Shown in pieces: positions 54,938 to 55,936 of a stretch of DNA of 64,000 nucleotides. This DNA is from Eledone cirrhosa (Eukaryota). Under the pieces are notes generated by a model. The model made no database searches. It saw only the letters and a list, made by a program, of their open reading frames with translations, and had not been told where the DNA came from. Where the stretch lies: contig OZ024742.1 of assembly GCA_964016885.1 (NCBI GenBank), positions 195,734,001-195,798,000 on the forward strand, written 5' to 3'. The first letter of the stretch is position 1. Every line of letters starts with the position of its first letter. Position numbers and translations under genes: made by a program.

Positions 54938-55936
54938 GATAATTTAATATATCAACTAACATAAGCGCACAGATGCACGCCCATGCCAGCAAATACACAG
55001 GTTATGTCATAGTACCTAGGTGGTTCAATGCAGGAGAATGCAGAACAATAATATAAAGGACGTAAAATAAGAAAATATTTTTTTTAAAAAAATTAAAAAA
55101 ATTTTTTTCTTACTTAAATTTTCACTCCAACTAATTAGTTTCTGCAATGGGATAAAGACAGTTACGTAATCCAACTGTCGAGAATTCATTGCGTCATCAG
55201 GAAGTCTATTCTCAGTTAAGTCTCCAGGCAATGCGCGGACACTGGCGGCTCATATAAAAATAATAATAATTCGGTAGATCGAACAGCTTGCGAGGACTAG
55301 ATTCTATGTACCGAAATTCTCACTGCTTCAAGTCAAATGGCCGATTCTAAAGAATCAATCACGTGACACAGAGGCTAGTTAGAAGGAATGGGATGGTAAG
55401 ATGACTGACGCCTACTAACACCCCAAAAAAAATTTTTTAGAAGTGGTTTTGACAAGTTTGCTCGACAAATCAGTGATTTGGAGATAAATATAGATAATTT
55501 AATATATCAACTAACATAAGCGCACAGATGCACGCCCATGCCAGCAAATACACAGGTTATGTCATAGTACCTAGGTGGTTCAATGCAGGAGAATGCAGAA
55601 CAATAATATAAAGGACGTAAAATAAGAAAATATTTTTTTAAAAAATCGGCCATTTGACTTGAAGCAGTGAGAATTTCGGTACATAGAATCTAGTCCTCGC
55701 AAGCTGTTCGATCTACCGAATTATTATTATTTTTATATGAGCCGCCAGTGTCCGCGCATTGCCTGGAGACTTAACTGAGAATAGACTTCCTGATGACGCA
55801 ATGAATTCTCGACAGTTGGATTACGTAACTGTCTTTATCCCATTGCAGAAACTAATTAGTTGGAGTGAAAATTTAAGTAAGAAAAAAATTTTTTTAATTT
55901 TTTTTAAAAAAATATTTTCTTATTTTACGTCCTTTA
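54938..55936. mobile_element. Retrozyme-like non-coding element, 555 bp unit, nested in (TA)n
   Basis: 54938-55090 repeated at 55493-55645; 55645-55936 is an inverted copy of ~55054-55347; HHRs at 55124-55205(-) and 55785-55866(+). Confidence 0.82.
55785..55866 (+). ncRNA. Hammerhead with extended stem II
   Basis: ACTTC-CTGATGA-GCAATG..(GACAGTT/AACTGTC)..CATTGC-GAAA-CTAATTAG-TT-GGAGT. Confidence 0.85.

What the first reader, a model, noticed from the sequence alone, without database searches (positions are those of the whole stretch)
54938..55936. 555 bp non-coding, terminally redundant element with an extended-stem-II hammerhead (retrozyme-like)
Seen: the left arm is about 1.28 units long (54938-55090 recurs at 55493-55645). 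The right arm is an inverted partial unit with a different end point. There is no credible ORF, each unit has one intact HHR with a second hairpin grafted into stem II, and both outer ends lie in (TA)n. Established: retrozymes are non-autonomous HHR-bearing repeats that yield circular RNAs. Inference: copies longer than one unit with permuted ends are what reverse transcription of a circular or multimeric RNA would give, probably by a PLE RT in trans. The unit seems longer than the few-hundred-nt animal retrozymes I recall.
Basis: partly seen in the sequence, partly recalled or inferred. Interest (0 to 1): 0.82.

Follow-up and report, generated by a model that had tools for sequence, protein, structure and literature searches.

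The report
Two-armed Penelope-type hammerhead retrozyme insertion
A 555-base non-coding repeat with a predicted self-cutting RNA sits here as two mirror-image arms inside a TA microsatellite, likely copied in by a Penelope-type jumping gene's enzymes; it is a further family of a known kind of small animal mobile element.

Summary
Arm A (54938-55645) is 1.28 copies of a 555-bp ORF-less unit. Arm B (55644-55934) is an inverted 0.52 copy. They join head to head and both outer ends lie in (TA)n. Each arm carries a type I hammerhead with a 51-nt stem II (0 of 5000 shuffles). One related contig shows two compensatory changes in the inner hairpin. Contigs of 4 of 4 runs (2 studies) hold the family and its head-to-tail joint.

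This is a non-LTR retrozyme, i.e. a non-autonomous Penelope-like element (PLE). Partial tandem plus inverted truncated copy plus one-sided tail is the published PLE layout, and five other inserts in this window show it. The different ends are better read as two fixed reverse-transcription start sites (tail 113-118 nt, each end at a TATAT) than as circular permutation. The arm-A end recurs in other contigs. The template was continuous across the cut site, so an uncut multimer or a circle; I could not tell which. 555 bp is inside the published range (51-972 bp). The scan already noted several such families on other DNA of this genome. Verdict: new member of a known kind, interest 0.3.

The parts
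54872..54937 (.). Left (TA)n target run; its last five bases (TATAT) also match the unit's own continuation
54938..55645 (-). Arm A, 1.28 units; hammerhead-sense strand is minus, 3' end at 54938
54938..55492 (-). One full 555-bp unit, 36% GC, no ORF over 54 aa from ATG
55493..55645 (-). 153-bp partial upstream unit (pseudo-LTR-like terminal redundancy)
54938..55055 (-). One-sided 'tail' of 113-118 nt between the two 3' ends
54947..54998 (-). 23-bp hairpin within the tail with 10 G.U pairs; the region folds at -34.7 kcal/mol on the sense strand against -19.1 on the other
   Evidence: variants
55124..55205 (-). Type I hammerhead of arm A, predicted cut after 55129
55644..55645 (.). Head-to-head junction of the arms, 2-nt overlap (AA)
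55644..55934 (+). Arm B, inverted 5'-truncated 0.52 unit; sense strand is plus, 3' end at 55934
55785..55866 (+). Type I hammerhead of arm B: stem I 55785-55789/55862-55866, core 55790-55796, stem II 55797-55847, palindromic stem III 55850-55861, predicted cut after 55861
55811..55833 (+). Inner 8-bp hairpin of stem II; two compensatory and one consistent change in a related contig
55935..55961 (.). Right (TA)n target run; first five bases (TATAT) also match the unit

Best explanation
This is a 555-bp ORF-less repeat with a predicted type I hammerhead, present as two head-to-head arms in (TA)n, likely a young insertion of a non-autonomous Penelope-like element (animal retrozyme) that a PLE enzyme likely copied in trans from an uncut tandem transcript. 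Steps. (1) Head-to-tail units exist (shown in contigs) and are transcribed as multimers (inferred). (2) The hammerhead cuts slowly or only with help, so uncut RNA survives (inferred from folding and from the arms reading through the site). (3) A (TA)n-targeting PLE protein, Hydra clade being the best candidate, nicks both strands of the microsatellite (inferred from the in vitro behaviour of the anole PLE). (4) Each nick primes reverse transcription at one of two fixed internal sites 113-118 nt apart, each at a UAUAU that can pair with the target end (ends shown, pairing inferred). (5) The two cDNAs stop after 708 and 291 nt and are joined through 2 nt of microhomology (junction shown, joining inferred). 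My odds: about 0.9 for the class of element, about 0.55 for this whole route with a linear uncut template.
For: Layout equals the published PLE layout: partial tandem, adjacent inverted 5'-truncated copy, one-sided tail (PMC8557442). The anole PLE cleaves and extends both target strands, starts RT at two internal sites that define the tail, and mainly uses unprocessed RNA (PMC11167929). Five other TA-flanked inserts that I picked in this window have an inverted arm and a one-sided overhang of 40-98 nt. Both ends sit at TATAT; only 5 of 555 unit positions are followed by 5 or more alternating T/A. The arm-A end recurs next to TA runs with three different flank sequences in five contigs of runs X1 and X8, one study. 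The head-to-tail joint is in 4 of 4 runs laid; one 401-nt contig of X3 crosses it with 99 letters on the short side. The hammerhead resembles those listed for Hydra-clade PLEs (File S2): cut after U in 10 of 25 families, a pyrimidine mismatch at the base of stem II in 15 of 25, near-identical stem III in Penelope-1_HM; C.A at that place occurs in PLE-X1_cBra. A Hydra-type PLE lies in this window in (TA)n (RWT, DKT, YRDD, CxCX5C, weak GIY-YIG hit). In the folded circular unit stem I has probability 0.0 and stem III about 0.1. At the one site where the repeated parts of arm A differ, arm B matches the upstream copy, as a tandem template of slightly different units would give.
Against: No partner PLE was found: the unit has no similarity above shuffles to nine PLE ends or hammerhead regions of the window. 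The arm-B end was not seen in other contigs (6 of 25 loose-end rows shown), so only one of the two 'fixed' sites is shown to recur. The tail is longer than the 30-40 bp given for PLEs, and the anole PLE starts at sites not homologous to the target, unlike the TATAT match here. The single-base argument for a linear template lies at a homopolymer boundary and may be an error. Run X6 laid nothing on 55450-55636. In X1 the 3' side changes of the inner hairpin (12 and 14 contigs) were matched by the partner change in only 0 and 1 contigs, and two changes in the proximal stem II had no partner change among the 40 of 93 rows shown. Nothing here shows transcription or cleavage.
Confidence: 0.55

Rival explanations
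1. Same element and enzyme, but the template is a 555-nt RNA circle made by hammerhead cleavage and ligation; RT rolls past its start point to give 1.28 units.
For: Coral, mussel and axolotl retrozymes accumulate as circles, and circle-templated RT is the proposed route (PMC7229834). Both arms cross the cut site. The circular unit folds far better than shuffles on the sense strand (z -4.3, 0 of 60) than on the other (z -2.0, 2 of 60), and the hammerhead is predicted blocked in the circle. Arms are 99.3-99.7% identical.
Against: The end that could be checked recurs at one site rather than being permuted. 1.28 units fits between cut sites of a linear multimer with one uncut hammerhead: arm A stops about 38 nt short of the next cut site. 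One base differs between the repeated parts of arm A. The anole PLE uses unprocessed RNA, and no reads ended at its cut site.
Confidence: 0.28
2. One priming event only: the cDNA of arm A folded back, the RT switched to it at a 2-nt match, copied 291 nt as arm B and joined the other target end at a TATAT.
For: Arm B lies wholly within arm A and is 99.7% identical; 2-nt overlap at the junction. A perfect spacer-less palindrome of this type lies at 33392-33797.
Against: At the one variable site arm B differs from the arm-A copy it should have copied. PLE protein extends both target strands in vitro.
Confidence: 0.09
3. The unit is just the long 3' UTR or pseudo-LTR of an ORF-bearing PLE whose coding part is missing from this truncated copy.
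For: Retrozymes are related to PLE pLTRs. The window's Hydra-type PLE has a 1.1-kb 3' region with a 36-nt stem II hammerhead. A few contigs run on for 144-255 letters into other sequence.
Against: Upstream of the full unit lies the end of another unit, here and in 4 of 4 runs; only 0-8% of what was laid runs on into unlike sequence, and the long loose ends I could read look like diverged or deleted unit variants.
Confidence: 0.06
4. A DNA-level satellite or foldback element; the hammerhead-like motif is incidental and no RNA step is involved.
For: Inverted termini; no Rfam hammerhead match.
Against: 0 of 5000 shuffles give the motif; compensatory changes and G.U to A-U or G-C changes keep strand-specific pairs; the termini are offset by a tail, unlike terminal inverted repeats.
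Confidence: 0.02

Closest known systems
Metazoan non-LTR retrozymes (Cervera and de la Pena 2020, PMC7229834, parts 2-4 of 6 read; Li, Clavereau and Pollet 2026, preprint 10.64898/2026.07.22.740005, parts 1-3 of 5 read)
   Same: Non-coding, under 50% GC, one type I hammerhead per unit, head-to-tail units, co-occurs with PLEs, length within 51-972 bp.
   Different: Longer than the 170-400-nt circles tested by Cervera. Stem II is 51 nt with an inner hairpin. The hammerhead is predicted blocked in the monomer circle, whereas most metazoan circles are predicted to leave it free. This locus is a two-armed dispersed insertion, not an array. No RNA data.
PLE insertion architecture and Hydra-clade PLEs (Craig et al. 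2021, PMC8557442; passages, section 11, supplement parts 1-2 of 59 read)
   Same: Partial tandem, adjacent inverted 5'-truncated copy, one-sided tail, (TA)n target; hammerhead with small stem III, frequent cut after U and mismatch at the base of stem II.
   Different: No ORF. Tail 113-118 nt against 30-40 bp. Stem II 51 nt against 12-26 nt in the 25 Hydra families listed (my count); the nearest in length is PLE-X1_sMoe (54 nt, marked as deviating; by eye it also holds an inner hairpin).
Poseidon PLE of Anolis (PAc) mechanism in vitro (Frangieh et al. 2024, PMC11167929, parts 1-2 of 4 read)
   Same: AT-rich target, both strands cleaved and extended, two internal RT start sites that delimit the tail, unprocessed RNA as substrate, protein-assisted hammerhead.
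   Different: PAc start sites are not homologous to the target; here both ends coincide with a TATAT in the template. PAc is autonomous.
Non-autonomous Chlamys elements such as MRC1 (PMC8557442, passage)
   Same: Non-autonomous PLE derivatives that form pLTRs and head-to-tail insertions.
   Different: Those share 3' sequence with their autonomous partners and Chlamys mostly lack canonical hammerheads; no partner was found here.

Membership tests
Metazoan non-LTR retrozyme | Type I hammerhead in each unit | tested here: met
   variants keep pairs; by sequence and structure only
Metazoan non-LTR retrozyme | No protein-coding capacity | tested here: met
   longest ATG ORF 54 aa on the circularised unit
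Metazoan non-LTR retrozyme | Head-to-tail repeats of a unit of a few hundred bp (51-972 bp reported) | tested here: met
   555-bp period; joint in 4 of 4 runs
Metazoan non-LTR retrozyme | [quoted passage not shown] | tested here: inconclusive
   This locus has only 1.28 consecutive units; no listed contig spans a whole unit; no genome held
Metazoan non-LTR retrozyme | Multi-copy in the genome, GC under 50%, no true LTR/PBS/PPT | tested here: inconclusive
   GC 36%; 1118 variant contigs in X1 and 10-39 in three other runs point to many copies, but the window's own genome could not be counted; PBS/PPT not searched, no tRNA gene nearby
Metazoan non-LTR retrozyme | Transcribed, self-cleaved, accumulates as linear and circular monomer RNA | not testable with these tools
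   Only contigs were served; they cannot show RNA ends or circles
PLE-mobilised insertion | Partial tandem (pLTR) with adjacent inverted 5'-truncated copy | tested here: met
   against the description
PLE-mobilised insertion | One-sided tail between two fixed RT start sites | tested here: inconclusive
   Tail present (113-118 nt); arm-A end recurs in five contigs, arm-B end not seen
PLE-mobilised insertion | Sequence shared with the end of an autonomous partner PLE | tested here: inconclusive
   None with the PLE ends in this 64-kb window; the rest of the genome could not be searched
Autonomous Hydra-clade PLE | Single ORF with RT and C-terminal GIY-YIG | tested here: not met
   No ORF in the unit; not filed as a member
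Rfam hammerhead families | Covariance-model match | tested here: not met
   No hammerhead hit up to E 10; probably due to the long stem II (inference)

The most novel reading that the evidence does not exclude
This young insert is a DNA record of a Hydra-type PLE enzyme copying a 555-nt self-cleaved RNA circle from both nicks of a (TA)n target, pairing each target end with a UAUAU in the RNA, with the long stem II acting as the switch that keeps the circle uncut; the G.U-rich tail hairpin would be an RNA-editing scar fixed by the same route. That would turn the proposed circle-templated step of the retrozyme cycle into a defined in vitro substrate.
Probability: 0.2. Interest if true: 0.65.

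Novelty: new member of a known kind. Interest (0 to 1): 0.3.

Why it matters
Modest. It adds a family to a known class and corrects two points: the unit length is ordinary, and the offset ends are the PLE tail, not proof of a circle. What stays useful is that the copy is nearly pristine, with both predicted RT start sites, a cut site and a junction defined to the base. It is therefore a ready substrate for the open question of whether PLE enzymes copy retrozyme circles or uncut multimers. It also shows that long-stem-II hammerheads escape Rfam, so such families are probably under-counted.

Tried and rejected
Whole-genome copy census: no genome held. Rfam: no hammerhead match in 53000-58000 or 54945-55930; the hits were microsatellite artefacts or far below gathering scores. 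Other copies in the window: none beyond the locus. X6 laid 0 contigs on 55450-55636. Depth steps near the arm-B end were not used, since contig depth is no copy number and disagree. Pattern scans: 0 matches in metagenome and viral contigs for the hammerhead motif; 4 metagenome matches to a 21-nt motif extend to only 22 nt and are chance. Partner PLE: no alignment above shuffles with nine window regions. Homologue search of the window's PLE ORF gave 22 unnamed relatives at 32-38% identity, no help with the partner. The bacterial promoter scan is not meaningful for an animal; it only re-found the tail hairpin. RNA-editing reading: among the 40 of 93 variant rows shown, window-G/relative-A sites on the sense strand number 9, the same as window-U/relative-C sites (9; hand count), so there is no general A-to-G excess; only the tail hairpin is suggestive. 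Sequence look-ups in earlier findings gave nothing. Paper searches listed no description of this family; supplements of PMC7229834 and of the 2026 preprint, which I did not see, list further retrozyme families and hammerhead variants and may bear on how unusual the stem II is. An earlier count gave the junction overlap as 3 nt; one search shows 2 nt.

Full report
Observation. The window's sequence and repeat searches confirm the anatomy. 54938-55090 recurs at 55493-55645, offset 555, with one substitution. 55051-55346 is inverted at 55644-55939 with one difference. Reading on the hammerhead strand, arm A runs 55645 to 54938 (708 nt, 1.28 units) and arm B 55644 to 55934 (291 nt). Their 5' ends meet with a 2-nt overlap and both 3' ends run into (TA)n. 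No other copy lies in the window. The circularised unit has no ATG ORF over 54 aa.

The hammerhead. My scan finds one type I motif per arm: stem I 5 bp, CUGAUGA, a 51-nt stem II (C.A, 6 bp, internal loop, 8-bp hairpin), GAAA, a 4-bp palindromic stem III and a GUU triplet. 0 of 5000 dinucleotide shuffles reached this and 1 of 5000 gave any motif. Rfam misses it. Relatives support the fold. Run X3 has a single contig over most of the hammerhead (record 14, depth 4.8, under the tool's caution level of 5); it changes G-C to U-A and C-G to U-A in the inner hairpin and G.U to A-U beside them. In all four runs most depth has C at the stem I wobble, making it G-C. Against this, two changes in the proximal stem II had no partner change among the 40 of 93 rows shown, and in X1 the two sides of the inner-hairpin changes were not matched. 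The C.A mismatch and GUU are not signs of decay by themselves: File S2 of Craig et al. lists a cut after U in 10 of 25 Hydra families, a pyrimidine mismatch at that place in 15 of 25, and C.A in PLE-X1_cBra (my counts). Locally the hammerhead fold lies 2.5 kcal/mol above the minimum. In the circular unit stem I has probability 0.0, stem III about 0.1 and the inner hairpin about 1.0. A palindromic stem III is the described mark of hammerheads that cut as dimers (PMC4209133, part 1 of 4 read). Slow or assisted cleavage is therefore the likely state; it is untested.

The family. No genome is held. Public runs hold the unit. Of five runs laid, four (X1, X8, X3, X5; two studies, three organism codes) cover 29 of 30 bins, and all four show the joint from the unit's end back to its start; one 401-nt contig crosses it with 99 letters on the short side. 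One of these runs may be the window's source. X1 gave 1118 contigs in all identity bands, and 0-8% of what was laid runs on into unlike sequence. X8 shows variants that skip 92 and 198 nt. X6 laid nothing on a 187-nt part. So the unit exists as head-to-tail repeats, is probably abundant, and is mostly not attached to an ORF.

The ends. Both 3' ends stop where the unit continues with TATAT, which only 5 of 555 positions do. The arm-A end recurs beside TA runs in four contigs of X1 (2 of the 6 rows shown of 25) and one of X8, with three different flanks. The arm-B end was not seen; a TA flank there would partly align with the unit and could be hidden. The 113-118 nt between the ends fold into a 23-bp hairpin with 10 G.U pairs on the sense strand only. 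Three of four listed variants in it turn G.U into A-U and one breaks a pair.

Context. The window is 23% microsatellite and full of inverted-arm inserts. Five others that I picked out lie between TA runs with a one-sided overhang of 40, 44, 55, 60 and 98 nt. One, 57351-58728, is a close structural twin: period 657, two arms, a 50-nt stem II hammerhead with an inner hairpin, no ORF of 120 aa, no sequence similarity to the 555 unit. ORF-bearing PLEs are present: a Hydra-type copy at 1699-5409 (RWT, DKT, YRDD, CxCX5C; clade motifs) with a 36-nt stem II hammerhead, and a two-armed RT/GIY-YIG copy at 61704-64000. Neither shares sequence with the unit.

Mechanism. Craig et al. describe partial tandems, an adjacent inverted 5'-truncated copy and a one-sided 30-40 bp tail as typical of PLE insertions, and (TA)n as the Hydra target. 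Frangieh et al. show that a PLE protein cleaves and extends both target strands, starts at two internal RNA sites that delimit the tail, and uses mainly unprocessed RNA. Together these explain the locus without permuted ends: two nicks, two fixed start sites, two cDNAs joined head to head. The template had to be continuous across the cut site. An uncut multimer does this, and so does a circle. I lean to the multimer (0.55 against 0.28) on the in vitro precedent, the predicted poor folding of the ribozyme and one base at which arm B matches the upstream copy of arm A. That base lies at a homopolymer boundary and is weak evidence. Fold-back copying (0.09), a pLTR of an unseen coding PLE (0.06) and a DNA-only origin (0.02) remain.

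Comparison with what is known. It works like, and by the testable features belongs to, the metazoan non-LTR retrozymes, which are proposed to be non-autonomous PLE derivatives. RNA-level features could not be tested. Its length is within the 51-972 bp reported. Its stem II is about twice the longest among the Hydra families listed (12-26 nt) but matches PLE-X1_sMoe in length and the 657-bp neighbour. The paper searches listed no description of this family. Earlier notes of this scan, which call the genome octopus-like (not tested by me), report several two-armed hammerhead families and long stem II motifs on other DNA of the same genome. They are unchecked leads, not support; I reuse the 'two-armed, two fixed ends' wording from them.

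Verdict. Real, and well explained as a young two-armed insertion of a non-autonomous PLE-type retrozyme. New member of a known kind; interest 0.3. The bold reading, circle-templated double priming through target microhomology, has probability about 0.2 and would merit 0.65.

Noticed in passing
window 57351-58728: Second ORF-less two-armed insert in (TA)n: period 657, 98-nt one-sided tail, hammerhead-like motif at 58373 (+) and 57806 (-) with a 50-nt stem II and inner hairpin, but core CUGAUAA (C3 with A8) in both arms, which may be inactive. No sequence similarity to the 555 unit.
   Followed up: partly
window 1699-5409: Near full-length Hydra-type PLE between TA runs: RT frame 1836-3692, endonuclease frame 3653-4297 in another reading frame, 1.1-kb 3' region with a 36-nt stem II hammerhead at 5312; fragments of the same family at 27962-28229.
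   Followed up: partly
window 61704-64000: Two-armed PLE copy with RT (62452-63390, minus) and GIY-YIG (63292-63870, plus) pieces; its 3' end family recurs as a two-armed insert at 10596-11377.
   Followed up: partly
window 10596-11377, 11490-11784, 20461-21475, 33392-33852: Further TA-flanked inserts with an inverted arm and a one-sided overhang of 60, 40, 44 and 55 nt; 33392-33797 is a perfect 406-bp palindrome with a hammerhead motif on each arm.
   Followed up: partly
window 54947-54998 (minus strand): Tail hairpin with 10 G.U pairs of 23, eight with G on the 5' arm; relatives have A at three of these. Could be an A-to-I editing scar, but the variant spectrum of the whole unit shows no A-to-G excess.
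   Followed up: partly
window 384, 56897 and 54515 (plus strand): Other type I hammerhead motifs with 26-nt stem II next to TA runs; 54497-54596 is a copy of the 56879-56978 family just left of the finding, with further copies at 51518-51677 and 52783-52957.
   Followed up: no
window 14386-18450: 244-bp direct repeats (97% alike) enclosing frames with zinc-knuckle, DUF7047 and weak integrase hits: an LTR-type retroelement.
   Followed up: no
window 781-1526: Frames that look by eye like a mariner-type transposase fragment between microsatellites; not scanned.
   Followed up: no
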